A stretch of DNA of 64,000 bases from a virus (lineage: Duplodnaviria > Heunggongvirae > Uroviricota > Caudoviricetes). A model generated the notes under the pieces. That model ran no database searches. It was not told the DNA's origin and saw only the letters and a list, made by a program, of their open reading frames with translations. The stretch lies in IMG/VR virus record IMGVR_UViG_3300029705_000018; one strand, written 5' to 3'. Of this stretch, positions 33,614 to 48,620 are shown piece by piece (position 1 is the stretch's first letter; the number at the start of each line of letters is the position of its first letter). The translations under genes were made by a program, and so were the position numbers.

Positions 33614-34228
33614 TTAGAAAGGCAGTTCGTCTGCCAGTCCGGCAACCTCATTCCATTCCTCGACAATCGCAGGAATATCGATGAAAGGACGGCTTGCCAT
33701 GTAGTCCGCCATGTGGACACATCTGTCCACATTGGTAAAGGGTCTGTCCTCTTTCTCGGTAGACCACTGACCCATGTGAGCGCAGACAGCGTTCAGAAGC
33801 AGAAAATGGGGTTCGCCGTAACCAGTGACCAGACAGTAATCACGGAAAGCAGTCGCCGCATTTCTGGCGTGATTCTTGTACTCGGCCTTGTCGAAACCAT
33901 CCAGACCATACTTGACAGTATCGTGAATGATACAGGCGACAATGACGAAATCCTTGTATTCTTCCTTCATGTATGCGTAAGAACTCATGCGGAGCAGTTC
34001 TTCGGCGAACATGACAACCGCCTTGGTGTGGCGAACCAGACCGCCAACGCCCTGGGACATCTTGGGGTGATACTTGCCAGAACTGGAAGCACCGTCTGTC
34101 CAGAAGTAGTCGGGAACTCGGTCGATCAGGTATCCCTTGACCGCCATGCGGAGATCCTCGTCCAGGATGAGGGACAGTTCCCTCTCAAAAAGCTTGATGT
34201 TCTTCATGGGTATCAATTCCTCTCTCAT
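33614..34228 (-). CDS. HD-domain phosphohydrolase
   Basis: GKYHP...VRHTKAVV...IVACIIHDTVKYG...D: the H...HD...D metal-binding signature. Confidence 0.6.
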   Translation of the reverse strand: MREELIPMKNIKLFERELSLILDEDLRMAVKGYLIDRVPDYFWTDGASSSGKYHPKMSQGVGGLVRHTKAVVMFAEELLRMSSYAYMKEEYKDFVIVACIIHDTVKYGLDGFDKAEYKNHARNAATAFRDYCLVTGYGEPHFLLLNAVCAHMGQWSTEKEDRPFTNVDRCVHMADYMASRPFIDIPAIVEEWNEVAGLADELPF

Positions 34229-34254
34229 TTGATGTACTCATTATAGCATAGGAT

Positions 34255-34446
34255 TTAGAGTTTGTCAAGTACTTTTTTAGAAAATTCTGTGTATTCAATA
34301 CACATTTTCAAAGTATCTTTTTCAACTGTCACACGCACAGAACTAACAAGGGGATTTTGTATCATCAGTTCGCCGGCCATTTTCTTGACCTCTGAATAGG
34401 GGATACCCTTACCAATTTCAATTCTAGCCATTGTTTTTCCCTCCAT
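34255..34446 (-). CDS. hypothetical protein
   Basis: 63 aa. Confidence 0.35.
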   Translation of the reverse strand: MEGKTMARIEIGKGIPYSEVKKMAGELMIQNPLVSSVRVTVEKDTLKMCIEYTEFSKKVLDKL

Positions 34447-34832
34447 GGTTCTGGGTTACCCCAGAACCACAAAATTTTTGCCGTAGTGGTCGTGAACGCC
34501 TTCTTCTACATTGTAGGTGATGGACAGTTCATCCATGTAAATGACCTTGGAATCACCAAAACCGAGTTCTTCCATGGTCTGAAGCTGGCGGAGCAGTTCA
34601 CTAACAGTAATGCACTTTTTATTCATGGGGGTTACCTCCTCTTGATTTATAATACAATTATACCACCGATTCCGGGAAAATCAAGTTGGAGTATTGCACA
34701 AAAAATGCGCCCCAAAAATTGTTGGAGTTGGTTATTTTGCCGAAAAACCGGCCCGCGCGCACGTAAAGGGCCGGCCGAAATTTGTGCAAATTGCACAAAA
34801 ACGAAGAAAAACCGGGATTTTTCCCGGTTTTT

Positions 34833-35201
34833 CTAACTTTTTGCCTTTCTTTTTGCGATTAAAGTCAATTCGTAGGCATTTTCACCAATTTTGAAGCTAA
34901 TTTGACGAGTTTTGTTGGTGATTTCCACTGAAACGTAGCCTTTTTCCGCTAAAAAGTGGGCGATTTCCGCAATTACAGCCTCTTTTTCCGGATTTTCGGT
35001 GGGTTTTCGTGCGGATTTGGTGGTTTTTGGCGATTTTGTGTCCGCATTAGCGTTTTTCATAGCCAGTTTGTGTGCTTCTGGACTCAAATCAAAGTCCATT
35101 TGCTCTCCCCTGTCGATGCATTTATCATCGGCAAGAATGGCTTCGGCTTCGCTTCTGGAACACTTGAGAGAACGCATGATGCGTTCGATTTGGCTATCCA
35201 T
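34833..35201 (-). CDS. hypothetical protein (cassette copy 1, gene a; paralog of 37891..38247)
   Basis: 122 aa. Shares the N-terminal I-K/R-L-M-K/R-S-L...S-R-E/S-E-A...D-E/D-D-K-R/C-I-D-R-G-E with its paralog. Confidence 0.5.
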   Translation of the reverse strand: MDSQIERIMRSLKCSRSEAEAILADDKCIDRGEQMDFDLSPEAHKLAMKNANADTKSPKTTKSARKPTENPEKEAVIAEIAHFLAEKGYVSVEITNKTRQISFKIGENAYELTLIAKRKAKS

Positions 35202-35300
35202 GGTGGTTGCCCCCTTTCCTTACTTAGTATAGCACATTTGGGGGGATTTGTCAAGAGGAAAGTTTGGGGGAGAATTTCTCCCCCTCTCCCCTCTCTCTGG

Positions 35301-35693
35301 TTAGACCAGAGAGAAGAAAGCCTTTCTCTTGTCCTCGGTTCTCTTGACCTGGCCTGCATCAACCATCTGGCGAACCAGAGCGGACATTCTCTGGTTGGTC
35401 ATGGTGTCAGGCAGGTTGGGAACCTTTTTCAGCAGTTCGGACACGGTGAACAGCTGATTGGGATTGGCTTCCATCACAGCCAGAACACCGGCCTTGATGG
35501 TTGCGTTGGCTTCCTGCTGAGCGGTGGGCTTCTTCTCAGCGGAGTTCTTCTTGGCCAGCAGTTCCTGCTCGTGGGCGATGAACTCAGCCAGCATGGGGTT
35601 GTTGGCGACTTCGGGGATGTTCGCAATCATAGCGAACTTCTGAGCCTTGGTCAGCTTGGTGGATGCGGAAGCGGAAGAAGTAGTGTTAGCCAT
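35301..35693 (-). CDS. hypothetical protein (cassette copy 1, gene b; paralog of 38327..38704)
   Basis: 130 aa. The MANTTSS...LTKAQKFA...DTMTNQRMSALVRQMVDAGQV block is near-identical in the paralog. Confidence 0.5.
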   Translation of the reverse strand: MANTTSSASASTKLTKAQKFAMIANIPEVANNPMLAEFIAHEQELLAKKNSAEKKPTAQQEANATIKAGVLAVMEANPNQLFTVSELLKKVPNLPDTMTNQRMSALVRQMVDAGQVKRTEDKRKAFFSLV

Positions 35694-36051
35694 AGTATCA
35701 ATTCCTTTCGGTTTTAGCGACTTGAACCTGTCGATGATTTATTCTGTAAGAGGTGTTCCTCTTTACATTCTTATTATAGCACATTCGGCTCGGTTTGTCA
35801 AGAACTTTTTTTCTTTTTTTTTCTTGACCTTGGAGGGTTGCCCCTCTCTTTTTGTACCCTCATTGTATCACATCTTGGGCGGTTTGTCAAGAGGTTTTTT
35901 CAACTTTTTTTTTCGCTCGGCTCGCTCTGTCCTGCGTTGTTGCCTGTCCCTCACTGACAAGGGTATTATACCATAGCCAGAAGCGGATTGCAATAGGCAA
36001 AGTATACAAAATCGGGAGAAATAATTTGTGCATTTTTTTCGCATTTTCCTC

Positions 36052-36175
36052 TTGACAAATTGCTGGGGGTATGGTATAATGGAAATTCTGCCCGGGCACA
36101 CTCGCGCCCGGGCCGCCGAAATGTCAATTGGTAATTTTGCACAAAAAAGTGAGGGTTGCCCCTCACTCATTTTTG
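36052..36175 (+). ncRNA. small-RNA-like mini transcription unit (consensus promoter, GC hairpin, terminator)
   Basis: TTGACA at 36052-36057, 17-nt spacer, TATAAT at 36075-36080. Then GCCCGGGCACACTCGCGCCCGGGC hairpin, CCGCCGAAATGTCAATTGGTAATTTTGCACAAAAAAG, and an AGTGAGGGTTGCCCCTCACT-CATTTTTG terminator. No ORF. Confidence 0.45.
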
Positions 36176-36604
36176 AATGACCGTTTCCAGATTGATTCCG
36201 GCGCTGACTTCTTCCCAGTTCTCCACATTGTCAACATGGACAACCTTGTGACAGCCATTGACCATCATCAGAGAATAGGTTGCGTTCTCATAACCGCACA
36301 GAACCTGGACAACCTCTTTGCCGATTGCCATGCCGAAGCCGGCTTCCCATGCCGTACCAGAGTCGGAATACATACCGAAGTTGAGAACCATGACCACATC
36401 ACAGTCATGGATGGCTTCAATGTCCATTTCAAAGACACGCTTTGCCCAGTCAGAGTTCGGCAAGTCCCATGCGTTGGGAACTTCATGCTCCTGGGGTACA
36501 TGAACCGGATAACCTGCGGAGCGCAGACGAGAGATGGTTTCCTTGTAGACTACCAATTCAGTAGCATTGAAGAACGGCGAAGCCAGATAGATTTTCTTTT
36601 TCAT
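36167..36604 (-). CDS. nucleoside 2-deoxyribosyltransferase-like protein (NDT/Rcl family)
   Basis: MKKKIYLASPFF...DSGTAWEAGFGMAIGKEVV matches the YLAGPFF and SGTAFEIG signature motifs. Start taken at the ATG with a GGAAAGGAAC ribosome-binding site (the six-frame track begins further upstream). Confidence 0.6.
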   Translation of the reverse strand: MKKKIYLASPFFNATELVVYKETISRLRSAGYPVHVPQEHEVPNAWDLPNSDWAKRVFEMDIEAIHDCDVVMVLNFGMYSDSGTAWEAGFGMAIGKEVVQVLCGYENATYSLMMVNGCHKVVHVDNVENWEEVSAGINLETVIQK

Positions 36605-36660
36605 AGTGTTCAGTTCCTTTCCTTTTTGTATTCTCATTATACCATGAGAAAAGGCTTTTG

Positions 36661-37005
36661 TCAAGCCTTTTCTACTCGGTAGAAGAAAAATTTATTGACA
36701 ATTCTTTTTGCCTTTTTGTCGTGGCAAAAATAAATACTTCCGAACAGATGTGTGGAATCGTCCATCAATTTGAGATTTTGAATTGCTTCCAATTTCACAG
36801 GCTTGCTTACATTGCGGAAGAGTTTCCAGAAGAAAACGAATGGGAAAAGCAGGATTTCCAGAATAATTTCCAGAATACCAGTGATGAGCAGATAGGGAAG
36901 CTGGATGAAGTTCATCCATCTCTGGCCCCACAGTTCTTCGTGAATGAAAGACAGGATAATGTATCCGGCAAGAATACCTAATAAGAAATTCAACATTTTA
37001 CACAC
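36661..37005 (-). CDS. membrane protein
   Basis: 114 aa, several hydrophobic helices. Confidence 0.4.
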   Translation of the reverse strand: MCKMLNFLLGILAGYIILSFIHEELWGQRWMNFIQLPYLLITGILEIILEILLFPFVFFWKLFRNVSKPVKLEAIQNLKLMDDSTHLFGSIYFCHDKKAKRIVNKFFFYRVEKA

Positions 37006-37060
37006 CTCATTTGTTTTTCTTTATTATAGCATGAATTGGGGGTTTTGTCAACCCCCAATT

Positions 37061-37387
37061 TTACGGAAGTTCATCGGGATAGCAGAAGCATTCCCATGCG
37101 ATACTCTCCCAAGTTTCCATACACTTGGAAGTGTTGCACAGCCAGATCGTGACAAAGAAAGTATTGACAACAGGCAGACCAATCATCAAAGCGCACTGGA
37201 TGAGACTGATGAAAGTCTTTGCCCAGTTCGTAGGCTGTTTGACCCTGACCATGCCCTTGGCCTTGCACTCCTTAAAAGTGGGAATCATAGCCAGACTGGC
37301 GAACACGAACAGATACAGGAAAGCCAGAATTGCGCTTGCGACATAGACCCAGAAGAAAATTTCTAACATAACATTTACCTCACTCAT
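37061..37387 (-). CDS. membrane protein
   Basis: 108 aa. Confidence 0.4.
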   Translation of the reverse strand: MSEVNVMLEIFFWVYVASAILAFLYLFVFASLAMIPTFKECKAKGMVRVKQPTNWAKTFISLIQCALMIGLPVVNTFFVTIWLCNTSKCMETWESIAWECFCYPDELP

Positions 37388-37441
37388 TTAATTTTCTTTA
37401 TTATAACATAGGTTTGCGAATTTGTCAAGAGTTATTTTGTA

Positions 37442-37654
37442 TCAAAGGGACATTTTCTGTCCCCAGATACAACGCTCAAAGGCAGGCTTGTAGACATTGT
37501 TCCAAATGAACTCCATCTCGTTGTAAGCTTCTCTGTCCTCCACAATCATTGCGTAGAACTGAACTGCTCCGAACGCCTGATGAATCCACAGTTCTTTGCC
37601 GTCCTTCTGGCACTGAGCCAAAAGCCAATCGATGTGCTGTTTCAGTTTATCCAT
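37442..37654 (-). CDS. hypothetical protein
   Basis: Start taken at MDKLKQ with a CAAGGAGGTAATC ribosome-binding site. Its own TTGACA-N17-TATAAT promoter is at ~37690-37725. A GC-hairpin module with a further upstream promoter lies at 37745-37830. Confidence 0.45.
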   Translation of the reverse strand: MDKLKQHIDWLLAQCQKDGKELWIHQAFGAVQFYAMIVEDREAYNEMEFIWNNVYKPAFERCIWGQKMSL

Positions 37655-37890
37655 GGTGATTACCTCCTTGATTTGTACCCTAATTATAGCATAGGTTTCG
37701 GGATTTGTCAAGGGGTTTTGCAAAAATAATTTTTGCAAGAAAAATTGCTGAAATAGGGGGTTAGTAGCGAAATGCCGGGCGCCACACTCGTCAGCGCCCG
37801 GCCATTATACCACATTCTTTTGAAAATGTCAAGCATTATTTTTTCGTCAAAATGCACAAAAAATCTGTCCGCGCTGGGCGGACAGATTTC

Positions 37891-38247
37891 TCAGGAGCGG
37901 GGACACGCAAGGGTGACTTTGTACTTCGTGCCGTTGTGGGTGAACAGGAACTCACGCTCGGCATTGGTGACATTGAACTCGGTGATTCCCAGTCCATTCA
38001 GACCTTCCATCATTGCGGAACACAGCTCTGCCTTTTCCGGCTTGGCTTTCTTCTCTCTTTTGGTGGTGGTCTGCTTGCGGTCTGCCTGTCGTGCTTTCTT
38101 TGCGCCCGCTTCCAGTTCGGGGTCAAGCTCAAACAACTTTTCGCCCCTGTCGATTCGCTTGTCTTCGTCCATCAGTTCGATGGCTTCCTCACGGCTGATG
38201 TTCAGCGACTTCATCAGCTTCTGGATTTTCTCTTCCATCGGGGTCAT
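37891..38247 (-). CDS. hypothetical protein (cassette copy 2, gene a)
   Basis: 118 aa paralog of 34833..35201. Confidence 0.5.
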   Translation of the reverse strand: MTPMEEKIQKLMKSLNISREEAIELMDEDKRIDRGEKLFELDPELEAGAKKARQADRKQTTTKREKKAKPEKAELCSAMMEGLNGLGITEFNVTNAEREFLFTHNGTKYKVTLACPRS

Positions 38248-38326
38248 CTCCTTTCTGTACTAAGTATAGCACAGATTGCTGGATTTGTCAAGGGGAAATT
38301 TTGGGGGAGTTTCCTCCCCCATCGGG

Positions 38327-38704
38327 TTACGCAATGGCGAAGAACGCCTTGCGCTTGTCCTCGGAGCGGACAACCTGACCCGCATCGACCATCTGACGGA
38401 CGAGTGCGCTCATGCGCTGATTGGTCATGGTGTCGGGCAGACCGGGCACTTCCTTGAGCAGTTCGGACACGGTGCGCTTCTTGCCGTCAGCCAGAACCTC
38501 CAGAACGGCGGTCTTGATTACGGCATTTGCCTCCTGCTGGGCAGTGGGCTTCTTGTCGGCGGAGTTCTTCTTTGCCAGAAGCTCAACTTCGTGGGCGATG
38601 AACTCGGACAGCATGGGGTCAGCCTTGACGGCGGGCAGTTCAGCCAGAATGGCGAACTTCTGAGCCTTGGTCAGACGAGCGGAAGAAGAAGTAGTGTTAG
38701 CCAT
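38327..38704 (-). CDS. hypothetical protein (cassette copy 2, gene b)
   Basis: Paralog of 35301..35693. Start taken at MANTTSS (ATG 38702-38704) with a GGAGA ribosome-binding site. Confidence 0.5.
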   Translation of the reverse strand: MANTTSSSARLTKAQKFAILAELPAVKADPMLSEFIAHEVELLAKKNSADKKPTAQQEANAVIKTAVLEVLADGKKRTVSELLKEVPGLPDTMTNQRMSALVRQMVDAGQVVRSEDKRKAFFAIA

Positions 38705-39374
38705 AGTATCGATCTCCAATCTTGCGGTAGGTCGCAACCCAAATTTGATTTATCTGTAAGAGGTGTTCCTCTTTACATTCTTATTGTATCACATCTTGAG
38801 CCAGTTGTCAAGAGGTTTTTTGAATTTTTTTTTGGCTTTCACTCCACCTAGTCCCTAATACAGCCTCGGGATTGGTTCACATTTATATTCCGCACAACGG
38901 AGCGACCGTGCGGTCGAGGACTTTGTCGTCATGGTCTGACACGACTCTCGTGGGTCTTGTCTCAACGACTTCTGCCATGCTTCCCTCTTTTGTACCCTTA
39001 TTATAACACATCTTGGGGAGTTTGTCAAGAGGTTTTTTTTCAGATTTCCTTCTGTTCGGTCATCTTGTGGTCACTTGCTCCGCAAGCCCTACCGCCTCCG
39101 ACCACGGCTAACCTCTTGACTTCTCTTACATTGTATCACAACTTGGGGGATTTGTCAAGGGGTTTCTTGAAGTTTCTTCAAGAAAGTTGCGTGCCGGAAG
39201 GTTGGGTCGTACACAGCCTCTGCCAACAGTTCGACGCCTAGCGTGGGTTTCCCAACTCCCGAGGCGTTCCCTCCCCTTGACACCAATACTATACCACATC
39301 TGCCCCCAGATTGCAATTGGCAAAATACACAAAATCGGGAAAAATAATTATTTATTATTTGTGCAATTTTCCTC

Positions 39375-39470
39375 TTGACAAATTGGCTGGCGGTGTGGTA
39401 TAATAAAATTTCGGCGCCCATCAACCGTGGGCGCCGCGCCGAAAAAGCCACCCCAAAAATGGGGTGGCTT
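39375..39470 (+). ncRNA. small-RNA-like mini transcription unit
   Basis: TTGACA at 39375-39380 and TATAAT at 39399-39404. Then TTTCGGCGCCCATCAACCGTGGGCGCCGCGCCGAAA hairpin with a 3-nt bulge, then AAAAAGCCACCCCAAAAATGGGGTGGCTTT. The same hairpin is the terminator of the minus gene 39476..39904. Confidence 0.4.
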
Positions 39471-39475
39471 TCGTA

Positions 39476-39904
39476 TCAGCTGGGCAGACCTCCGCCCATA
39501 ACCTGAATCACCTTCAAAACCATGTCCTCGGCTGACATACACTCTTCGGGTTCCTCGGGGGGCAGGAGTTCGGCTTTCTGCTGTTCGGCCAGGGCGGACA
39601 TGACCTCGAAAATGTTGGGGATGATTTCTCGCTCGACCTCGAGTTCGGGTTCGGGGATGGGTTCCTCGTCCTGTTCCCAGAGGTGCTTCATCAGCACCCC
39701 CAGAATCATCAGAGAGAACTCGTCCGTGGCGAACTGGTCGGGGTGGTTCACCAGAGCCAGAACCTCGCCGGTGTAGCCGTCGCACACATGGGCATGATTG
39801 CCGTTCGTGTCAGCTCTCAGCAGTTCCAGGATTGCGATTTCGGGGTCGTCAGTCTTGACAGTGACCTCAGCGTCGGAGTAAAAAACAGAGATTACATACT
39901 TCAT
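39476..39904 (-). CDS. hypothetical acidic protein
   Basis: 142 aa. Confidence 0.45.
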   Translation of the reverse strand: MKYVISVFYSDAEVTVKTDDPEIAILELLRADTNGNHAHVCDGYTGEVLALVNHPDQFATDEFSLMILGVLMKHLWEQDEEPIPEPELEVEREIIPNIFEVMSALAEQQKAELLPPEEPEECMSAEDMVLKVIQVMGGGLPS

Positions 39905-40003
39905 AGGTATCAGTTCCTTTCCTTTGTTGTACCAACATTATAACATGGATTAGTTGGTTTGTCAAGAGGTTTTTGAAAAATTTTTTTTAGGGGATGGGGC
40001 GGA

Positions 40004-42101: not shown

Positions 42102-42542
42102 TCAGATTTCTCTGAGAATTTCCATGATGTTCTGTACATCGTGGGGGATGCCAGTCCATCCAGTTCTGTTCCGTTCCTCATCATCGAACAGAATGTCGAG
42201 AGGGGTTCGGCAGAACATTTCCTTAGGAGTGCCATAGGGAACGATGTTGATTTCATCCCAATGGACGGAGGGCAGATGTTCCGCAAGCCAGACCTTTTTG
42301 ACTTCGGTAACTCTTGCGTTGTACTCTTTGCTTCCGCTCTTGGAAGTCCAGGAGATAACGGAGAGCCGATAGCCTTGCTTCTGGAGTGCGTTCAGCTTGC
42401 GAGCCAGAGCGGAGAGGTTCAGCAGAGGTTTTGCGATTGCGTAGGGAGTGGTATCTTCAGCTTCCAGATAGGGGAGCCAGTTCTTGACACCGTAGAGGTC
42501 AGCGATTGTGCCGTCCATGTCGAAGTTAATTGTAACAGTCAT
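42102..42542 (-). CDS. HAD-superfamily 5'(3')-deoxyribonucleotidase-like protein
   Basis: N-terminal INFDMDGTIADL (HAD motif I, DxDGT). Size ~150 aa is typical of phage/NT5C-type nucleotidases. Confidence 0.55.
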   Translation of the reverse strand: MTVTINFDMDGTIADLYGVKNWLPYLEAEDTTPYAIAKPLLNLSALARKLNALQKQGYRLSVISWTSKSGSKEYNARVTEVKKVWLAEHLPSVHWDEINIVPYGTPKEMFCRTPLDILFDDEERNRTGWTGIPHDVQNIMEILREI

Positions 42543-42592
42543 TTGATTCAGTTCCTTTCCTTTTTTGTACCTTAATTATAACACGGAATACC

Positions 42593-42793
42593 TCATTTGT
42601 CAAGAGGTATTCCAACAATTTTTCTGATTTCTTCATCTTTTTTGTAGTGTGTGAAAGACTTGTCAAAGCAACATTCCACGATCCACAAATCATCTCCGGT
42701 GGAGTAGTTCACGACTTTCCACATTGTACCATGTTCGGGGAACACCAGACCGCACCGCACATGAGTCAGGGATCTACATTTAATTTTATCCAT
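42593..42793 (-). CDS. hypothetical protein
   Basis: 66 aa. Confidence 0.35.
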   Translation of the reverse strand: MDKIKCRSLTHVRCGLVFPEHGTMWKVVNYSTGDDLWIVECCFDKSFTHYKKDEEIRKIVGIPLDK

Positions 42794-42848
42794 TTATCTC
42801 ACCTCTTGATTATTGTATCATAGTTTGGAGATTTTGTCAAGCCCTTTT

Positions 42849-43410
42849 TTAGTAGGGCTTGGCAACTCTCTTTGCTTCCTTGGGGTCAATCAGAACACCA
42901 ACAAAGCGGTCATTCAGCTGATAGGCTTCTTCATACTTGCCGATGAAATAAGCACGCATCCGACTTTCACAGGCGATTGTGGCGGAGAGGTTGTGGCAGG
43001 GTTCGCACATTACAACTTCAAGCCGAACTTTTGCACCTGCCAACTTTTCATACTCGGCGACTTCCTGCTGAAATCTTTCCTGCGGTTGTTCGCTTGTACC
43101 AATCTTGCTTGCGTACAGCAGACCAGATTCCACAAAGTACACATGGAGCAGATAGCAAGCAGAGCCGAACACTTCCCGCACCTTCCAATCAATGTAATGC
43201 TTGGTGTGGTTGGTTCTACCTCTTCCGCACTTAAAAGCGACCTTGTCTTTTTCCTTGACGGTGAACCGCTTCATCCATGCTTCATACTGATTTGCCTTGT
43301 AAGCGGTCAGAACTGCTTTCCATGCCTTCTGGATGTGTCCTGCGGACAAGCCTGCGTTCTTACGGCGATTGTATTCTTTTACCAGACCCTCAAAAATAAC
43401 CTCATTCATT
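42849..43410 (-). CDS. hypothetical protein
   Basis: Start taken at MNEVIFEGL with a GGAAAGAGGAAC ribosome-binding site. Confidence 0.4.
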
Positions 43411-43528
43411 TTGTGTTCCTCTTTCCGGGTTGCCCCTTGATTTATAAGCCTAGTATACACTATAAATCACGATTTGTCAAGCATTATTTTGGGATTTTTC
43501 AAAAAAAGTTTTTTGTGCAAATTGCCTA

Positions 43529-43625
43529 TTGACAAATTGGCTGGGCTGTGGTATAATGGAAATAACGCGCCGGCTGGGTCGTGGGCGGCGCGCCGAAAAA
43601 TAAAGTGAGAATTTCTTCTCACTTT
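43529..43625 (+). ncRNA. small-RNA-like mini transcription unit
   Basis: TTTTGTGCAAATTGCC, then TTGACA at 43529-43534, 17-nt spacer, TATAAT at 43552-43557. Then AACGCGCCGGCTGGGTCGTGGGCGGCGCGCC hairpin, GAAAAATAA, and AAGTGAGAATTTCTTCTCACTTT terminator. Confidence 0.45.
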
Positions 43626-43857
43626 ACAGCTTGGTTCCAGAAGGTGACCGGAAAATCATTTCAGTTTTCTTGTATGTGATTTCTGCGGTGGCTCCGCAAC
43701 CACATTTGAATTTGCGATACAGCTGATGGGAAGTTTCTCCCTCGTAAACTACCTTGAACTGTGCGGTGCTTCCGCAATTAGGACATCTCTCAACCATTAT
43801 TATCATTTCCTTTCCTTTTGTTGTACTTATTATACCATGTAATTGGGGATTTGTCAA
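43624..43857 (-). CDS. small zinc-ribbon protein
   Basis: 77 aa with CPNCGS...CGCG. Confidence 0.4.
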   Translation of the reverse strand: MTNPQLHGIISTTKGKEMIIMVERCPNCGSTAQFKVVYEGETSHQLYRKFKCGCGATAEITYKKTEMIFRSPSGTKL

Positions 43858-44180
43858 TCCCCAATTTCACAACATTCGTAAGTATTTTGCGGGATGATGC
43901 AGTCCATCACATCAAACTTCTGTGCGTTGCCATGAATGAGATAGACATGAGCATTGGGAAACTCCCTCTGAATGTCTTCCAGATAATTGTAGAAGCCATT
44001 ACACAGTTGTTCAAACCGTTCCTGTCTTTCGTCAATGCGTTCCTCGCACATCTGAGCGAGTGCCCGCAACTGTTCTTTGTTCATGTTTTTGACATTGTCG
44101 CAGAGGTCTGCGAATCTAACTGGATTCAACATGGTATCATTCTCCTTTCTTGAACTTCTGGCGATTGTATCGCTTGCCAC
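43854..44180 (-). CDS. hypothetical protein
   Basis: 108 aa. Confidence 0.4.
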   Translation of the reverse strand: MASDTIARSSRKENDTMLNPVRFADLCDNVKNMNKEQLRALAQMCEERIDERQERFEQLCNGFYNYLEDIQREFPNAHVYLIHGNAQKFDVMDCIIPQNTYECCEIGD

Positions 44181-44361
44181 TTTCTACCTTGCTTCCTCTC
44201 TTGCGGAAGTTCAGCCACTGCTGAAGTTCTTCGCCCTCTTTCTTGAATACTCGGCGATCCAGTTCCTTTTTCTTCTTTGCCATTGTTGTCAACTCCTTTG
44301 TTTTTCTATAAATATTATAACATACTTTTTATTTATTGTCAAGGGGAATTTTTCATTCCCC

Positions 44362-44676
44362 TTACATTCTCAGCAGAAACGCATACTTTTCATTGTTCTT
44401 GCGGACTCTGTTCTTCAATGCCACAGGCATCTTTTCATTGTAGTAGAAGGAAGAAACCTGAGCCATCGTTCCCATGTATCCGGTGATGAGGGTATCATCC
44501 TTGACTACCAAAATGATTCCGGTATCAGTCAGCTTTCTGGTTGCGTATTCGCCATGCCGGTAGCTTGTCTGTTCTCTGATGATTTCATTGAATCCCAGAT
44601 GTTGGATGCAAGCGGTGAGTCTGTCAATCCGTTCTTCCTTAGCGTGGTAGGTCATTTCAAATCTCATAGTAGCCAT
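44362..44676 (-). CDS. hypothetical protein
   Basis: 104 aa. Confidence 0.4.
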   Translation of the reverse strand: MATMRFEMTYHAKEERIDRLTACIQHLGFNEIIREQTSYRHGEYATRKLTDTGIILVVKDDTLITGYMGTMAQVSSFYYNEKMPVALKNRVRKNNEKYAFLLRM

Positions 44677-45009
44677 TGTTTTTATCTCCTTTTGTTTTCC
44701 TTTTTTGTACCTTTATTATAACATGAGTTTCGGGATTTGTCAAGGGGTTTTTTATTTATTTTTCAAAACCCCATCAGACAGAACAGAATCATAACAACCA
44801 GACCTGTGAGGGTCAGACCCAAGGCCGCAAGGAAGTTTTCAAACATTTGCTTGTAATTCTTGCGATTGTCCACAGGACACCAGTCTGCGTAATAGATGTT
44901 CCGGCAGATGCGGAAGCGGATGTATTTGAACAGTTTCTTCATGGCTCTTGGCTCCTCTCTTTTGTTGTCTTCATTATAACACAAAAGAGGCTTGTTGTCA
45001 AGCCCCTTT

Positions 45010-45345
45010 TTAGAAAATTCTAATAATTTCATCGTCGTAAATGTCATTTGTACCCATGTCATCAAACTCAATCCAGACCTGCTGCCCCAGTTCGAAGGAT
45101 TCTCCCTCTTCCAGTTCCCAGACCCAGACCTCGCCAGAAGCATCCTCAAAAGCAACAGCCTCTGCATTGACTTCGCACACAGTAGCACTTACTTCATTAG
45201 CATCACTGTAGAGACAGTCTACGAGCATCCATCCGCACACCATAGCCAGAGCCAGCATTCCTACGCACAGTACTTTTCTAATCATTGTCATTATCTCCTT
45301 CGTTGTTTGTACCTGTATTGTATCATGAATTATGGGATTTGTCAA
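45010..45345 (-). CDS. putative secreted protein or lipoprotein (signal-peptide-like N-terminus; true start probably the internal MTMIRK)
   Basis: The hydrophobic stretch VLCVGMLALAMVCGW comes after an internal Met. A TTGACA-N17-TACAAT promoter lies upstream on the minus strand. Confidence 0.4.
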   Translation of the reverse strand: MTNPIIHDTIQVQTTKEIMTMIRKVLCVGMLALAMVCGWMLVDCLYSDANEVSATVCEVNAEAVAFEDASGEVWVWELEEGESFELGQQVWIEFDDMGTNDIYDDEIIRIF

Positions 45346-45449
45346 TCGTCAAAATACACAAAAGAATTGCGTTTTTTATTTGCTGAGTTGTGCATTTCGC
45401 CGAAGTCTAGGCAGGTGGCGGTCGTGTGCGGAGACAAGTAAAGGTCTGC

Positions 45450-45668
45450 TTATTTGCAGACCTTCATGATTAGTCTCTCATAGCTTAGTCCTGCCACAGC
45501 ACACAGAGACCGCAGGTTCTCTTTGACGTACAGCTTCTCTGCATAGGCAAGTGTGCCCTTCGGCTTGTCCATCATGCGCATGATGTAGTTGTACTGATAG
45601 GTCTCGCGCAGGCTAGGCTTGCGCTCTGTGATGATGTCGAGCATCTTGTTGATGGCTGTCTTGTTCAT
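45450..45668 (-). CDS. hypothetical protein
   Basis: 72 aa. Terminator AAAGGTCTGCTTATTTGCAGACCTT lies downstream. Confidence 0.4.
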   Translation of the reverse strand: MNKTAINKMLDIITERKPSLRETYQYNYIMRMMDKPKGTLAYAEKLYVKENLRSLCAVAGLSYERLIMKVCK

Positions 45669-46022
45669 TGTGTGTGCCTCCTTTACTTGATGGTGATGGT
45701 GGTGTGCTTGGTGTACTTGCTAGTCTTTACATCTACGATGGTATCCTGGTAGGCTCTGTTGCTGATGCTGTGGAACTCTACGGTGGTGTTCTTGTCTTCT
45801 ACCTTGTTCAGCAGAGCGATCAGTTCAGCGACGGTCATGGTGTTCTTCATAGTGTGTATCTCCTTTACTCTTGGGTTGTGTCCCTCTCTCTTTGTGTCTT
45901 TATTATAACATTACAGGAGTTATTTGTCAAGCTTTTTTTTATTATTTTACACACTTTTTTTTCTACAGCCTAGCCCTACGGGCCAGTTAGGGAGCCTGTG
46001 GGTCGTGGTCGGTGGCTACTCC

Positions 46023-46394
46023 TTACAGAGTAGCCATTACCTTAGCAAGCTCTTCAGTACTCATGCTCTTGTAGTGTTCCATGATAGCCTTGAGCATCTT
46101 GTTGCGCTTAGTCTCTTCTTCTCTCTCTGTGTTGCGCTGTGCTCTGTACTCGTCACGCTCAGCCTCTGTGTCGAACCACGTGTACTGTCCGTAGAGGTAG
46201 CCAACCTTCTTGCCCTGTGCGGTGTAGATGTTGATGATGCCTTTGTTGTTGTTGATGTACATGACCTCGGACCAACCACCTTCGTTGTGGATGTCATAGA
46301 TGTTACGCTTGGGGATGTTGTGGGCTTCGATGTAGTCCTTGGTGTAGAGCTTCTGTCCGTTGATGTGGTACAGTTCGTTTACGTTGTGCATCAT
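46023..46394 (-). CDS. hypothetical protein
   Basis: 123 aa. Confidence 0.45.
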   Translation of the reverse strand: MMHNVNELYHINGQKLYTKDYIEAHNIPKRNIYDIHNEGGWSEVMYINNNKGIINIYTAQGKKVGYLYGQYTWFDTEAERDEYRAQRNTEREEETKRNKMLKAIMEHYKSMSTEELAKVMATL

Positions 46395-46832
46395 AGTGAT
46401 TATCTCCTTTACTTTGTGAGGTGTGTTCCTCTGTTTTTTGTAGCTTTATTATAACACACGGGTGAGAGTTTGTCAAGGGGTTTTAGGAAATTTTTTTATT
46501 ATTTTTTTTCTTTGGAATGTGGCAAAATTTTCTCGAACCTCTCAAGATAACGCAAAATCGGCTCTGCGCGCACGTCGCCGAGCCGAGCAATTAGGGGGTG
46601 CTTTGTAGGGGGTGGGTATCTGTCATGTGTCAGAGAGTTTAGAGACATGGACAATAGACTCTGTATTTTCTGCCGGATGAAAAACCGGGGGTGTATTTCG
46701 GGAAAAACTTTTTTTTCGATAGGCCAAAACTTTTGCGCTGGGCAATACAATCTTGAAATCAATTTTCAATTTCGGAATACGATTCTGGGATAAAAAAAAG
46801 GAGAACGGTATTTTACCATTCTCCTCAAATTT

Positions 46833-47336
46833 TTACTGGCGCGCAAATGTGACTGCCGTCGCACTGGTTGGGTCGGCGCAATTGCTTGTAACATATGTAA
46901 TTGTATCGTTCATAACGCTCCAATTAGCCTCTGTGTTTCCCAAGATTCGTCTCAATACTTCCTCGTCCAATGTTACACTGAAGGAGTCCCCTGGCATCGC
47001 GTAGGCAGAGGCCGCCGCAAGCGTCTCTTCTTCTCTTGGATCTTCAAAGACAGTATTCATTCTGGCAAAATAGTGCCAAACATATCCATATCTATCTTCG
47101 CAAGTTCCAATGTAGTCGCAATCCATCCAAACCTCGTCCGGTAAATCCCAACCGGTACCCCAGGCCACAATATCCCAACTTCTCTTGGCGTGGCGATTAT
47201 TGCCATCCAAATCTACAACACCCCAGACCGTTGGTAAATTATCCTGGAGTCCTACATGCAGCCAATCAATAACATGGTCATTGATAGTCACAACTTCGCC
47301 ATCTCTTGGCAGTCTATACTTATAAATTTTCTGCAT
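46833..47336 (-). CDS. hypothetical protein
   Basis: 167 aa. Confidence 0.45.
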   Translation of the reverse strand: MQKIYKYRLPRDGEVVTINDHVIDWLHVGLQDNLPTVWGVVDLDGNNRHAKRSWDIVAWGTGWDLPDEVWMDCDYIGTCEDRYGYVWHYFARMNTVFEDPREEETLAAASAYAMPGDSFSVTLDEEVLRRILGNTEANWSVMNDTITYVTSNCADPTSATAVTFARQ

Positions 47337-47574
47337 TTTGCTTTTCCCTTTCAGCCTCAGTTGCTTCTTTATCCAATCTTACACATAAAAACCAGCTATT
47401 GTCAATAAAAGCAGTAAAATATTCTACTCTATCGCCAATTTCAATTTGGAACTTATTTCTCAAATGCGCCGGGATGATAATTCGACCAGAACCGTCAACC
47501 TTGTAATTCATGTTCTCAGGAATCAACTGAACACCATTAATCCATCCGCTTTGTGGCATTGGTACAACCTCCAT
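47320..47574 (-). CDS. AbrB/MazE/SpoVT-type swapped-hairpin DNA-binding protein
   Basis: KVDGSGRIIIPAHLRNKFQIEIGDRVEY matches the AbrB-family beta-barrel motif. Confidence 0.5.
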   Translation of the reverse strand: MEVVPMPQSGWINGVQLIPENMNYKVDGSGRIIIPAHLRNKFQIEIGDRVEYFTAFIDNSWFLCVRLDKEATEAEREKQNAENL

Positions 47575-47848
47575 TCTTATAGAAAATACACATCATGCTA
47601 CAGTTTCCATCGCCTGTTTCGCACGGACTGTAACCATATTGTTCTATTAGATCCAGAATGTGCGGACAGCGCTCCACAAACATCCGGAAGTAATCATATC
47701 CATACATATCTAAAATGCGGCGAGCCTTATAAAAATCTCGTTCTCGTCTGTAATCCTCGGTCATTGGATACCATGCGGCCGACATACGCTCACGAGATCC
47801 TTCCCACATTTCTTCCACTTCTAATAAAATACTTACCCACTTATCCAT
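47537..47848 (-). CDS. hypothetical protein
   Basis: 103 aa. Confidence 0.4.
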   Translation of the reverse strand: MDKWVSILLEVEEMWEGSRERMSAAWYPMTEDYRRERDFYKARRILDMYGYDYFRMFVERCPHILDLIEQYGYSPCETGDGNCSMMCIFYKNGGCTNATKRMD

Positions 47849-48620
47849 CCTTAAGCTCCTTAGCTTTCACAACATTTTCCAAGAGAGCCAATCGTGTCAA
47901 TAAACCAACACCTCCGGGGACTGGAGTTACATTGCGCCCCTCGGTATTGTAACAATCTCCAACTAGCTTTCCATCTACAAAATTTATGCCCACATCGACA
48001 ACTGGAACATGAATTGGATAACAATTCAAAAATCCCGGTTTGCCGACGGCGCTTACAATCAAATCACTACTATACAAATGATTTGACAATTTGGAATGAC
48101 TATGACACAAGGTGACCGTTGCGTCCCTATCAGTCATCATTTTTGCGAGAGGCTTACCGACAATATCACTTCTGCCGATAATCATGACTTCTTTACCTTC
48201 AAAATTGAAACCACAATAATCCAAATAATTCATAATTCCAAGAGGAGTTGCGGGTTGGAATAAACTATCACATCTAAATCCATCCACATCTTTTTCTCTG
48301 GGGATTGCGGCCTGCGCGACCTTGACGCGGATATGGGGCGGGAGTGGTAGTTGCACTATGACGCCGTCATAAAATTCAACCATATGCTCTAATTGGTCAT
48401 CTAATTCAAATTCAGTGGTTTCTGTGGGATAAAAATAAGTGTGTGCGGTGATGCCGATTTCATCACAATCTTTCATCTTATTTCTAATATAACGATTTGA
48501 TGCTTCATTCTCACCAACTTGGACAATTGCTAGGGTGGGAGGAAATTCCATTTTAGAAACTTTTTCCTTCAACTCTTGTTTGCGTTCATTTACATAACTC
48601 TTAATATCCTTTAGCTCCAT
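47841..48620 (-). CDS. folD: bifunctional 5,10-methylene-tetrahydrofolate dehydrogenase/cyclohydrolase
   Basis: LAIVQVGENEASNRYIRNK...GVIVQLPLP...DVDGF...ATPLGIMNYL...GKEVMIIGRSDIVGKPLAKMM...VTLCHSHS...VVDVGIN...VTPVPGGVGLLT. These FolD motifs lie along the full length of the 259-aa protein. Confidence 0.8.
   Translation of the reverse strand: MELKDIKSYVNERKQELKEKVSKMEFPPTLAIVQVGENEASNRYIRNKMKDCDEIGITAHTYFYPTETTEFELDDQLEHMVEFYDGVIVQLPLPPHIRVKVAQAAIPREKDVDGFRCDSLFQPATPLGIMNYLDYCGFNFEGKEVMIIGRSDIVGKPLAKMMTDRDATVTLCHSHSKLSNHLYSSDLIVSAVGKPGFLNCYPIHVPVVDVGINFVDGKLVGDCYNTEGRNVTPVPGGVGLLTRLALLENVVKAKELKDG

What the first reader, a model, noticed from the sequence alone, without database searches (positions are those of the whole stretch)
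33614..48620. Nucleotide/one-carbon metabolism gene set
FolD (47841..48620), a nucleoside 2-deoxyribosyltransferase-like protein (36167..36604), an HD phosphohydrolase (33614..34228), a HAD 5'(3')-deoxyribonucleotidase-like protein (42102..42542), a DEDDh exonuclease (40004..40684) and a GT2 glycosyltransferase (7781..8803) occur together. This suggests that the phage remodels dNTP pools and possibly makes a modified base or sugar-decorated DNA. NDT-like and HD enzymes are recurrent in phage DNA-hypermodification pathways.
Basis: partly seen in the sequence, partly recalled or inferred. Interest (0 to 1): 0.5.

Follow-up and report, generated by a model that had tools for sequence, protein, structure and literature searches.

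The report
Scattered early nucleotide-supply and nuclease genes
The genes are real, but they are separately promoted early genes of a large gut phage that most likely recycle nucleic acids and support ordinary thymidine synthesis; nothing found points to chemically modified phage DNA.

Summary
All six genes exist, on the minus strand, at the stated coordinates. FolD and the nucleoside 2-deoxyribosyltransferase (NDT) are solid calls. The DEDDh exonuclease has no Pfam hit but is supported by invariant motifs and a confident structure model. The HAD protein reaches the NT5C threshold only marginally. The HD protein is a YhaM-type two-metal nuclease domain, not a nucleotide phosphohydrolase.

The GT2 gene lies 25 kb away in a tRNA array and carries an in-frame TAG.

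The genes are not an operon. They are spread among about 33 small early ORFs, nearly all with their own consensus sigma-A promoter. The phage is a roughly 183 kb TAG-recoded relative of phAss-1.

HD, exonuclease and HAD recur in all 17 related loci examined. NDT is absent from all of them. FolD homologues elsewhere in the lineage sit beside dUTPase and NrdDG.

A close relative encodes adjacent ThyA and DHFR within an otherwise canonical 44 kb replication module, with no hypermodification hallmark.

Verdict: ordinary nucleic-acid recycling and thymidylate support. The DNA-hypermodification reading is not supported. Interest is low to moderate.

The parts
47841..48620 (-). FolD, a bifunctional methylene-THF dehydrogenase / methenyl-THF cyclohydrolase (259 aa). 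It is the first enzyme gene of the first early operon.
   Evidence: Pfam PF00763 and PF02882. PHROG 7320, E 2e-61. Solved FolD structures at E 3e-44 with catalytic motifs aligned. Scores fall below all NCBIfam equivalog cut-offs, so it is divergent.
48995..49023 (-). Consensus sigma-A promoter (TTGACAA-N16-TATAAT) driving the FolD operon (48825 down to 46833).
   Evidence: Exact pattern match; sequence read.
42102..42542 (-). Small HAD-superfamily phosphatase with an NT5C-like core (146 aa). Motif I is DMDGT and motif IV is DD. The substrate is unverified.
   Evidence: Pfam NT5C at 25.1 bits against a cut-off of 24.8. PHROG 2643, annotated 5'-3' deoxyribonucleotidase, E 2e-7. Most listed homologues carry a precomputed PF06941 hit. 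No PDB hit. Own promoter at 42575-42603.
40004..40684 (-). DEDDh (DnaQ-like) 3'-5' exonuclease. The true start is probably the ATG that gives MNKTIF.
   Evidence: D13, E15, D110, H180 and D185 are invariant. AlphaFold pLDDT 89.9. Foldseek top hits are Orn/REXO2, ERI3, TREX1 and DnaQ. No Pfam hit.
36167..36604 (-). Nucleoside 2-deoxyribosyltransferase-family enzyme (145 aa). Glu87 is the nucleophile, and Asp81 and Asn116 are of the nucleoside type. It is an accessory gene of this phage species.
   Evidence: PF05014, E 7e-19. PDB 6EVS, E 3e-15. Absent from all related loci. Found in 49 collection blocks; all 24 contigs read show the same context. Own promoter at 36636-36664.
33614..34228 (-). 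HD-domain protein of the YhaM/Cbf1 type: a two-metal phosphodiesterase/nuclease domain without the OB fold (204 aa).
   Evidence: PF01966. PHROG 5889, function unknown. A profile of 65 homologues hits YhaM structures 9o7t and 9h3f at E 2e-7 and 8e-7. Invariant H54, H67, H102, D103, H120, H151 and D175. Family members are fused to RNase H, ExoX_C or HARP. Own promoter at 34240-34268.
33104..49023 (-). Early region. It holds about 33 small ORFs served by 19 minus-strand consensus sigma-A promoters, mostly with a TGn extended -10 element.
   Evidence: 24 exact matches to TTGACAA-N16-18-TATAAT in the window against 0.01 expected; 22 of them lie in this region. Repeat families D1-D8.
34833..38832 (-). 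Tandem duplication of about 3 kb: a two-gene module (34833-35822 and 37891-38832) that brackets NDT and two membrane ORFs.
   Evidence: Repeats D9, D11, D14 and D18 at 71-81% nucleotide identity. The paralogous proteins are 73% identical.
7781..8803 (-). GT2 (GT-A) glycosyltransferase with an in-frame TAG at 8717-8719. It lies in the tRNA array and is judged not to belong to the early gene set.
   Evidence: Translation. With TAG read as Gln, profile matches run across the TAG position: PHROG 841 over residues 3-109 and NCBIfam glycosyltransferase, TuaG and EpsD from residues 2-4.

Best explanation
The five genes are independent, host-RNA-polymerase-transcribed early genes of a roughly 183 kb TAG-recoded siphophage. 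The phage is distantly related to phAss-1, to Enterococcus phage EF1 and H1, and to SPbeta. Together the genes provision canonical DNA synthesis; they do not build a modified base.

Shown:
- Each gene has its own consensus sigma-A promoter and lacks in-frame TAG.
- FolD is an intact FolD homologue.
- The HD protein is a YhaM-type two-metal nuclease domain.
- The 226-aa protein has a DEDDh exonuclease fold.
- NDT has the NDT catalytic residues.

Inferred:
- The two 3'-exonucleases break down host DNA or RNA to mononucleotides.
- The HAD phosphatase converts some (d)NMPs to nucleosides.
- NDT swaps bases on deoxynucleosides to rebalance the pool. This step is specific to this phage species.
- FolD regenerates 5,10-methylene-THF from 10-formyl-THF for a phage ThyA, with DHFR completing the thymidylate cycle. 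ThyA and DHFR were seen only in a close relative.

The GT2 gene is unrelated. Because it contains a TAG, it can be translated only once amber suppression is active.
For: Promoters: 24 exact consensus sites against 0.01 expected, directly upstream of HD, NDT, HAD and the FolD operon.

Phage identity: major capsid protein 46% identical to phAss-1. Yon-family structural Pfam hits. In-frame TAGs in terminase, portal and tail genes, matching PMC10607447.

FolD. In other lineage members FolD homologues lie directly after dUTPase and NrdD/NrdG. In MT835556 one lies in a module with ThyX.

Close relative IMGVR_UViG_3300024272_000018 carries FolD (64%), HD (75%), HAD (76%) and Exo (39%). It also carries adjacent ThyA (PF00303, E 2e-57; best solved match B. 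subtilis ThyA, E 1e-36) and DHFR (PF00186, E 5e-44). Around them are GyrB, RNase H, GyrA, LigA, AAA_24 and DnaB by Pfam, and guanylate kinase, NrdD, NrdG and dUTPase by tblastn to annotated homologues. PolIII alpha was found by homology to the phAss-1 and H1 polymerases. RuvC-like, primase-like, RecJ-like and RecD-like genes were read from the translations alone.

HD as nuclease: and PMC12107432.

Exonuclease.

Conservation: HD, Exo and HAD occur in 17 of 17 related loci. The order HAD, then one or two small genes, then Exo is kept in phAss-1, Enterococcus phage H1 and the IMG/VR relatives.

NDT: Asp81, Glu87 and Asn116 align with the nucleoside-type positions. The residue roles are recalled from the NDT literature cited in PMC12884076.
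Against: None of these enzymes has been assayed.

The NT5C assignment of the HAD protein is at threshold and does not cover the cap, so its substrate could be a nucleic-acid 3'-phosphate end.

Dephosphorylating dNMPs only to re-phosphorylate them is wasteful, unless NDT is used, and NDT is missing from the relatives.

ThyA and DHFR were seen in a relative, not in this phage; about 119 kb of this genome was not read.

HD homologues also occur in SPO1, SP8, SP82G and CP-51. I recall these as 5-hydroxymethyluracil phages.

The exonucleases could equally act on RNA.
Confidence: 0.62

Rival explanations
1. RNA-end processing module. The YhaM-like HD nuclease and the DEDDh exonuclease, possibly with the HAD protein acting as a 3'-phosphatase, trim or heal RNA 3' ends. 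The main substrate would be the phage's polycistronic array of about 33 tRNAs. They would not be feeding nucleotide pools.
For: 28 of 31 tRNA genes in the window encode their 3' CCA. As I recall, that class is matured exonucleolytically in B. subtilis by RNase PH, PNPase, RNase R and YhaM. YhaM is a 3'-5' exoribonuclease and deoxyribonuclease (PMC12107432, PMC11347170). The best fold matches of the exonuclease are oligoribonucleases and ERI3. tRNA arrays and the HAD-Exo pair co-occur across phAss-1, Enterococcus phage H1 and this phage. Weak NCBIfam hits of the HAD protein fall in HAD-IIIA/IIIC, the subfamilies that as I recall include polynucleotide 3'-phosphatases. Family members are fused to RNase H.
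Against: HD homologues also occur in small Clostridium perfringens phages of about 52 kb, which are unlikely to carry large tRNA arrays. The fold-search TM-scores (0.45-0.54) do not separate RNA-acting from DNA-acting DEDDh enzymes. The genes lie 20-30 kb from the tRNA array. The only family evidence for the HAD protein points to NT5C.
Confidence: 0.18
2. The set supports a non-canonical DNA base. FolD would feed a hydroxymethylase, the HAD protein would act as a dTMP or dNMP phosphatase that excludes the canonical nucleotide, and NDT and HD would act as DmtZ-like and DatZ-like pool editors.
For: An NDT-family enzyme, DmtZ, does work in Z-base DNA synthesis (PMC12884076). HD homologues (33-39% identical) occur in SPO1, SP8, SP82G and CP-51. 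Most of this phage's genome outside the window was not examined directly.
Against: The HD protein is the YhaM two-metal nuclease type. NDT has the nucleoside-type Asp and Asn rather than the nucleotide-type Ser and is absent from relatives. No PurZ, ThyX or ThyA-type gene was found in the window by the motif scan or the partial Pfam scan. The relative's only ThyA homologue keeps the uracil-specifying Asn, is closest to a genuine thymidylate synthase, and is paired with DHFR; as I understand the chemistry, hydroxymethylases do not need DHFR. Lineage members carry thymidine kinase, dUTPase or ThyX. Four-base palindromes such as GATC (141 observed, 249 expected) are under-represented. That is weak evidence, but it is what is expected for DNA exposed to restriction.
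Confidence: 0.06
3. Counter-defence enzymes. The HD phosphodiesterase, the Orn-like DEDDh exonuclease and the HAD phosphatase would be early anti-immunity factors. They would destroy cyclic or linear nucleotide second messengers of CBASS, type III CRISPR, Pycsar or Thoeris systems.
For: All three are expressed from strong early promoters and are conserved as a trio. The HD profile also weakly matches cyclic-nucleotide phosphodiesterases PDE9 and PDE10 (E about 0.02). The top fold hits of the exonuclease are dinucleotide-degrading Orn/REXO2.
Against: No match to any known anti-defence family was obtained. The PDE matches are not significant. The domain fusions of the HD family (RNase H, ExoX_C, HARP) point to polymeric nucleic acids.
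Confidence: 0.07

Closest known systems
phAss-1 / proposed Phassvirus group (OQ749652; PMC10607447) and Enterococcus phages EF1, H1 and VRE9
   Same: Large siphophage genome. TAG-to-Gln recoding is concentrated in late genes. Long tRNA arrays lie on the early/middle strand, and early regions are made of small genes. The order HAD, small genes, DEDDh exonuclease is kept. The replication module is PolIII-alpha based with NrdDG and dUTPase.
   Different: Only 28-46% protein identity. phAss-1 has ThyX and no FolD, HD or NDT homologue in the stretches examined. This phage is about 183 kb rather than 136 kb. No Sup-CTA tRNA lies inside the window.
Phage thymidylate-cycle genes (T4 td and frd; B. subtilis ThyA, recalled as related to phage phi3T thyP3)
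   Same: A phage-encoded thymidylate synthase plus DHFR occur in the close relative. The best solved match is B. subtilis ThyA. FolD extends the same folate cycle.
   Different: FolD is a less common addition, although PHROG 7320 exists and Lak phages and gut phage contigs carry it. Here FolD has moved from the dUTPase end of the nucleotide module to the first early operon.
YhaM / Cbf1 3'-5' exonuclease of Bacillota (PDB 9h3f, 9o7t; PMC12107432)
   Same: Same HD subfamily, with the extended two-metal motif and the upstream ASS-GK-H-P signature. The alignment covers the whole ring-forming catalytic domain.
   Different: It lacks the N-terminal OB domain that binds substrate in YhaM. It is 204 aa rather than about 314 aa. 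Activity is untested.
Nucleoside 2-deoxyribosyltransferases (solved NDT 6EVS; Lactobacillus NDT) and phage NDT PHROGs 7995, 1817 and 355
   Same: PF05014 fold, the YLASPFF motif, the Glu nucleophile in the DSGTAWE motif, and the nucleoside-type Asp.
   Different: At most 36% identity to any GenBank phage NDT. Unlike DmtZ of Z-base phages (PMC12884076), no PurZ or DutZ partner was detected and no nucleotide-type Ser signature is visible.
NT5C 5'(3')-deoxyribonucleotidases (mdN and cdN; SPbeta YorS, from memory)
   Same: HAD core with DMDGT and DD motifs. Pfam and PHROG hits.
   Different: Only about 50 residues separate motifs I and II, so the cap is much smaller than in mdN. The score is at threshold, and no solved relative is found by sequence.

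Membership tests
FolD (bifunctional methylene-THF dehydrogenase/cyclohydrolase) | Both the catalytic and the NAD(P)-binding domains are present and full length. | tested here: met
   PF00763 covers residues 7-113 and PF02882 covers residues 119-255.
FolD (bifunctional methylene-THF dehydrogenase/cyclohydrolase) | Conserved catalytic and binding motifs (Y-x3-K, VQLPLP, DVDGF, GRSxIVGKP, PVPGGVG). | tested here: met
   All are aligned to solved FolD 6v6y.
FolD (bifunctional methylene-THF dehydrogenase/cyclohydrolase) | Score above an NCBIfam equivalog cut-off. | tested here: not met
   Best score 192 bits against cut-offs of 333-544. This is a divergent, shortened (259 aa) phage-type FolD.
Nucleoside 2-deoxyribosyltransferase family (PF05014) | Profile match above the gathering score, plus the catalytic Glu nucleophile. 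| tested here: met
   68.5 bits against 28.8. Glu87 in the DSGTAWE motif aligns with the equivalent Glu of 6EVS.
Nucleoside 2-deoxyribosyltransferase family (PF05014) | Nucleoside-specific (5'-OH binding Asp/Asn) rather than dNMP-specific (Ser/Ser). | tested here: inconclusive
   Asp81 lies six residues before the nucleophile, and Asn116 is present. The roles of these residues come from recalled literature (Kaminski and Labesse 2013, cited in PMC12884076). No assay was done.
Z-base (2-aminoadenine) DNA system with DmtZ | PurZ or PurZ0, a dATP-removing enzyme (DatZ or DutZ), and DpoZ alongside the NDT-like gene. | tested here: not met
   No adenylosuccinate-synthetase-like family appeared in the Pfam scans run on window ORFs, which covered only part of them. 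The relative's replication module uses PolIII alpha, not a family A DpoZ. The rest of this genome was not seen.
YhaM/Cbf1 HD exonuclease | Extended two-metal HD motif (H...HD...H...H...D). | tested here: met
   H67, H102-D103, H120, H151 and D175 are invariant in 65 diverse homologues. The profile hits YhaM at E 2e-7. The motif is described in PMC12107432.
YhaM/Cbf1 HD exonuclease | N-terminal OB-fold nucleic-acid-binding domain. | tested here: not met
   The protein is 204 aa, and the match starts at YhaM residue 113-116. It is therefore a domain-only relative, not a YhaM orthologue.
dNTP triphosphohydrolase or 5'-nucleotidase type HD (DatZ, YfbR, SAMHD1-like) | Sequence or profile similarity to those subfamilies. 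| tested here: not met
   None appears among PDB profile hits up to E = 10. There is no NCBIfam hit.
NT5C 5'(3')-deoxyribonucleotidase | Pfam PF06941 above the gathering score, plus HAD motifs I and IV. | tested here: met
   25.1 bits against 24.8, which is marginal. DMDGT at residues 8-12 and DD at residues 118-119 were read from the sequence.
NT5C 5'(3')-deoxyribonucleotidase | Cap domain and substrate specificity for dUMP and dTMP. | not testable with these tools
   The match excludes the cap (profile positions 76-145 only).
DEDDh (DnaQ-like) 3'-5' exonuclease | Exo I (DxE), Exo II (D) and Exo III (H-x4-D) residues on an RNase-H-like fold. | tested here: met
   Invariant D13, E15, D110, H180 and D185. 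pLDDT 89.9. Foldseek probability 1.0 to REXO2, Orn, ERI3, TREX1 and DnaQ. There is no Pfam hit.
Thymidine hypermodification pathway (5-hmdU based) | dUMP hydroxymethylase together with a 5-hmdU DNA kinase, an aGPT-Pplase or a transferase. | tested here: not met
   No ThyA or ThyX signature occurs in the window. In the close relative the single ThyA-family gene is adjacent to DHFR and closest to B. subtilis ThyA. The 44 kb around it holds only canonical genes. About 119 kb of this phage was not examined.
DNA glycosyltransferase (sugar-decorated DNA) | A glycosyltransferase linked to a hydroxymethyl-base pathway. | tested here: not met
   The GT2 best matches envelope-polysaccharide enzymes such as TuaG and EpsD, all far below their cut-offs. 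It sits in the tRNA array, has no hydroxymethylase partner, and carries an in-frame TAG.

The most novel reading that the evidence does not exclude
The conserved early trio is a dedicated nucleic-acid 3'-end processing system. The trio is the OB-less YhaM-type HD nuclease, the DEDDh exonuclease and the small HAD phosphatase. These phages would use it to mature or repair their own large, CCA-encoding tRNA arrays, or to counter tRNA-directed or nucleotide-signal host defences, rather than for nucleotide salvage. The HD family has 1,811 cluster representatives at E <= 0.001, no assigned function and no solved structure. It would then be a new class of phage RNA- or DNA-end nuclease.
Probability: 0.2. 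Interest if true: 0.55.

Novelty: new member of a known kind. Interest (0 to 1): 0.27.

Why it matters
If the main reading holds, this is one more example of a large gut phage carrying its own thymidylate-cycle and salvage enzymes. That is useful for annotation but not surprising.

Three by-products are worth more:
- The 'HD phosphohydrolase' family (PHROG 5889, which includes SPO1 gp32.6) can be re-annotated as a YhaM-type nuclease domain.
- The gene order HAD, small genes, DEDDh exonuclease is conserved from Enterococcus phages to phAss-like phages. That makes it a testable functional pair.
- Phage FolD recurs beside dUTPase and NrdDG in this lineage, which links it to dTMP synthesis.

The result also cautions against inferring DNA hypermodification from generic NDT, HD or HAD domain labels.

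Tried and rejected
1. AlphaFold model of the HD protein from a shallow alignment (71-99% identity). Mean pLDDT was 61, and the Foldseek hits were meaningless, with the best E-value at 0.4. I discarded it in favour of a profile built from 65 diverse homologues.
2. Megablast of the 15 kb region against GenBank phages gave no match.
3. Walking outside the window with the look-up of encoding contigs. About 10 kb beyond each window end was all that could be gained.
4. A scan with phAss-1 NrdD alone and one with a phAss-1/H1 PolIII alignment reached only phAss-1 or distant lineage members, not the close relatives. A lineage dUTPase alignment finally gave L164. Its PolIII linked to the 171 kb relative.
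5. The metagenome scan with that PolIII did not return this phage's own contigs.
6. The genome-contig scan with the HD protein returned only contigs of 1.5-20 kb in MAG bins of discordant taxa (Clostridia, Lentisphaeria, Treponema). No host can be inferred from it.
7. Palindrome avoidance is consistent with unmodified DNA, but it is too generic to carry weight.
8. I considered and rejected TAA or TGA recoding. Only TAG interrupts recognisable genes.
9. I considered and rejected the GT2 as a pseudogene-only explanation. Profile alignments run continuously across the TAG, as they do in the other recoded late genes.

Full report
**What is in the sequence**

Their profile support is as follows.

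| Gene | Coordinates | Evidence |
|---|---|---|
| FolD | 47841-48620 | Both Pfam domains. Solved FolD at E 3e-44 with catalytic motifs intact. Below NCBIfam equivalog cut-offs. |
| NDT | 36167-36604 | PF05014, E 7e-19. PDB 6EVS, E 3e-15. |
| HD | 33614-34228 | PF01966, E 2e-9. |
| HAD | 42102-42542 | NT5C at 25.1 bits against a cut-off of 24.8, core only. PHROG 5'-3' deoxyribonucleotidase, E 2e-7. No solved relative. |
| DEDDh exonuclease | 40004-40684 | No Pfam or NCBIfam family. |
| GT2 | 7781-8803 | PF00535. In-frame TAG at 8717-8719. |

The NDT keeps the YLASPFF motif and the Glu nucleophile in DSGTAWE.

For the exonuclease, D13, E15, D110, H180 and D185 are invariant in 24 homologues. A confident AlphaFold model (pLDDT 89.9) matches Orn/REXO2, ERI3, TREX1 and DnaQ domains.

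The GT2 lies 25 kb from the others, inside a tRNA array.

**Context: which phage this is**

The major capsid protein is 46% identical to that of phAss-1 and 40% identical to those of Enterococcus phages EF1, H1 and VRE9. The structural genes carry the SPbeta-type YonB, YonD, YonG, YomU, YomV and YomW Pfam families.

phAss-1 is the type of a described group of gut siphophages that read TAG as Gln (PMC10607447). The same holds here. Read with TAG as sense, the following become continuous ORFs:
- the ORF 51438-53201, read as the terminase (4 TAGs);
- the ORF 53542-55182, read as the portal protein (2 TAGs);
- three ORFs at 60275-62669, two of which carry the YomW and YomV tail-module families (3, 3 and 6 TAGs).

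Of the early genes, 32 of 33 end in TAA or TGA.

Identical copies of window proteins lie on contigs of up to 183,267 bp, so the window is about one third of the genome.

**Organisation of the finding**

The region 33.1-49.1 kb holds about 33 small minus-strand ORFs. The window contains 24 exact matches to TTGACAA-N16-18-TATAAT, against 0.01 expected. Twenty-two of them lie in this region, mostly with a TGn extended -10 element.

HD, NDT, HAD and the FolD operon each have such a site directly upstream. The exonuclease has a near-consensus variant. These are therefore separately promoted genes that host sigma-A RNA polymerase should transcribe immediately. None contains an in-frame TAG. The GT2 does, so it needs amber suppression to be translated. 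The set is a loose co-location, not an operon or cluster.

**What the HD protein really is**

A single-sequence PDB search found nothing. The shallow-alignment model was poor and its fold search uninformative.

An exhaustive search gave 1,811 cluster representatives at E <= 0.001. A profile of 65 of them, 32-53% identical to the query, has these invariant residues: A47, S48, G51, H54, G63, H67, H102, D103, H120, H151, W155 and D175. That profile hits the YhaM/Cbf1 3'-5' exonuclease structures 9o7t and 9h3f at E 2e-7 and 8e-7, over 143-171 positions.

YhaM binds two metal ions through an extended HD motif and degrades ssDNA and RNA from the 3' end (PMC12107432). The phage protein corresponds to YhaM's catalytic ring domain without the OB domain. 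Longer family members are fused to RNase H, to an ExoX-like C-terminal domain or to HARP. All three fusions point to polymeric nucleic-acid substrates. No dNTPase, DatZ or YfbR-type HD protein appears among the hits.

The 'HD phosphohydrolase acting on nucleotide pools' reading is therefore unlikely.

**Conservation in relatives**

Of 18 IMG/VR loci with an HD homologue, one is a near-identical (99%) fragment of this phage. The other 17, with HD identities of 54-75%, all carry HAD and Exo homologues within 10 kb. FolD (64%) lies on the same contigs, at the same distance as in the window.

The order HAD, then one or two small genes, then Exo is kept in phAss-1 and in Enterococcus phage H1.

NDT is absent from every related locus, although those loci cover the equivalent position. 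The exact NDT protein is listed in 49 blocks of the collection, and all 24 contigs read show the same neighbourhood. In the window it sits between the two copies of a 3 kb tandem duplication. NDT is therefore a species-specific accessory gene, not part of a conserved pathway.

**FolD and the thymidylate cycle**

In four other lineage contigs, FolD homologues follow PolIII, guanylate kinase, NrdD, NrdG and dUTPase directly. The closest GenBank FolD (43% identical, MT835556) ends a module of ThyX, NrdD, NrdG and dUTPase.

I then reached the replication module of the close relative IMGVR_UViG_3300024272_000018 (171,580 bp) and read 99-143 kb of it. Its genes are:
- an SPFH protein, cell-wall hydrolases, GyrB, RNase H, GyrA and NAD-dependent ligase;
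- ThyA and DHFR, adjacent to each other;
- AAA_24, DnaB, and primase-like, RecJ-like and RecD-like proteins;
- PolIII alpha, guanylate kinase, NrdD, NrdG, dUTPase and a RuvC-like resolvase.

Several of these rest on less than a family search. The primase-like, RecJ-like, RecD-like and RuvC-like labels are my reading of the translations. Guanylate kinase, NrdD, NrdG and dUTPase rest on tblastn to annotated homologues.

ThyA scores PF00303 at E 2e-57, and its best solved match is B. subtilis ThyA at E 1e-36. DHFR scores PF00186 at E 5e-44.

A thymidylate synthase paired with DHFR is the signature of reductive methylation. Hydroxymethylases leave the folate reduced and do not need DHFR; this point rests on established enzymology, not on a test made here. 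FolD supplies methylene-THF from 10-formyl-THF. With ThyA and DHFR it makes a phage-encoded thymidylate cycle. That this phage itself carries ThyA and DHFR is an inference from the relative.

**Search for hypermodification partners**

Pfam scans on ten of the window's larger unassigned ORFs gave no DNA-modification family. No ThyX or ThyA signature occurs in the window. In the roughly 240 PolIII- or dUTPase-centred lineage loci held at that point, ThyX appeared only in the phAss-1 group, and a canonical ThyA appeared only in one unrelated contig. The divergent ThyA of the close relative escaped those patterns and was found by reading the ORFs.

Lineage members encode thymidine kinase, dUTPase or ThyX.

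Four-base palindromes are under-represented. For example, GATC occurs 141 times against 249 expected. This is weak evidence, but it is what is expected for DNA exposed to restriction.

An NDT-family enzyme, DmtZ, does act in Z-base DNA synthesis (PMC12884076). Here, however, no PurZ, DutZ or DpoZ partner was found in what was examined. The NDT also has Asp81 and Asn116 at the positions that bind the nucleoside 5'-OH, not the Ser residues of the nucleotide-specific enzymes (residue roles recalled from the literature).

HD homologues occur in SPO1, SP8, SP82G and CP-51, which I recall as hydroxymethyluracil phages. They occur equally in Clostridium phage c-st, in C. perfringens phages of about 52 kb, and in an archaeal virus.

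**Most likely mechanism**

Early after infection, host RNA polymerase transcribes these genes.

Shown: gene identities, catalytic residues, promoters, conservation patterns and the ThyA-DHFR pair in a close relative.

Inferred:
- The two 3'-exonucleases (HD and DEDDh) degrade host nucleic acids to mononucleotides.
- The HAD phosphatase releases nucleosides.
- In this species, NDT exchanges bases among deoxynucleosides to fit the phage's needs.
- FolD keeps methylene-THF available for thymidylate synthesis.

I put this at about 0.6.

The main rival, at about 0.2, is that HD, Exo and perhaps HAD act on RNA 3' ends, notably on the phage's tRNA array. 28 of 31 tRNA genes encode CCA. As I recall, YhaM helps mature that class of tRNA in B. 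subtilis. Hypermodification and anti-defence readings are each below 0.1.

**Comparison with known systems and novelty**

Every component belongs to a known family, and phage thymidylate-cycle and salvage genes are well known. This is a new member of a known kind.

The less ordinary points are:
- the re-assignment of PHROG 5889 (SPO1 gp32.6-like) to the YhaM nuclease subfamily;
- the conserved HAD-Exo synteny;
- the relocation of FolD to the first early operon.

**Limits**

Nothing was assayed. About 119 kb of this phage's own genome was not read. The relative used is only 64-76% identical in the shared proteins. The HAD substrate is unresolved. The host is unknown: the MAG hits are short contigs in bins of discordant taxa.

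Noticed in passing
window 49076-63745 (+), and 7781-8803 (-): TAG is read as a sense codon, presumably Gln as in phAss-1. Read that way, the ORFs 51438-53201 (read as terminase, 4 TAGs), 53542-55182 (read as portal, 2 TAGs), three ORFs at 60275-62669 (3, 3 and 6 TAGs) and the GT2 become continuous. No Sup-CTA tRNA lies within the window.
   Followed up: partly
window 1033-13605 (-): An array of 31 tRNA genes (ARAGORN) on one strand, interspersed with small ORFs. 28 of the 31 encode the 3' CCA.
   Followed up: partly
window 2984-3609 (-): A full-length ROOL RNA (Rfam RF03087, 323 bits, model positions 1-574 of 574) is embedded in the tRNA array.
   Followed up: no
window 11868-11937 and 11953-12021 (-): Two tRNA-like genes are found by Rfam (40.8 and 38.6 bits) but not by ARAGORN. 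Their anticodon arms are abnormal: one is a nucleotide short with poor pairing, the other is reduced to a 4-bp stem with a 4-nt loop.
   Followed up: partly
window 10489-10524 (-): A DUF3800-XI RNA motif (RF02975, 47.6 bits against a gathering score of 37.8) lies between two tRNA-Glu genes.
   Followed up: no
window 36052-36080, 39375-39404 and 43529-43557 (+), with repeats at 39407-39443, 41563-41599 and 43561-43597: Three consensus promoters point against the direction of the early genes. At 39.4 and 43.5 kb each is followed within a few bases by a conserved GC-rich element of about 37 nt. A third copy of that element lies at 41563-41599, with no consensus promoter beside it. They sit in the ORF-free gaps at 35.87-36.17, 39.13-39.47 and 43.47-43.62 kb. 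They may be small antisense RNAs or regulatory elements.
   Followed up: no
window 15095-16516 and 20122-21717 (-): Two large paralogous proteins (473 and 531 aa, 24-27% identical, E 4e-23) share an HPLDFL-x-S-x-N-x3-W-x-SC motif and Cys-rich C-termini. Neither has a Pfam family.
   Followed up: partly
window 14297-15019, 18768-19403 and 2086-2457 (-), and 53213-53569 (+): Several small genes resemble DUF2726 or PDDEXK endonucleases and are probably mobile. One of them, read by eye from its shared sequence motif, is inserted between the terminase and portal genes.
   Followed up: no
window 16459-17445 (-) and 225-803 (-): An M28/M20-like metallopeptidase with a C-terminal zinc ribbon, and a papain-like Peptidase_C1 protein, are encoded among the middle genes and the tRNA array.
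   Followed up: no
L164 5293-5862 and 10531-11016; L380 5926-6918: In the close relative, in-frame TAGs also occur in non-structural genes: guanylate kinase (4), the RuvC-like gene (3) and a GIY-YIG-like protein (9). Recoding is therefore not confined to virion and lysis genes.
   Followed up: no
L380 7194-8099: The relative's ThyA departs from the canonical motifs. It has LAPCAF where LPPCH is usual, and GPGGINEIQY where LGVPFNIASY is usual. It keeps the catalytic Cys and the uracil-specifying Asn.
   Followed up: partly
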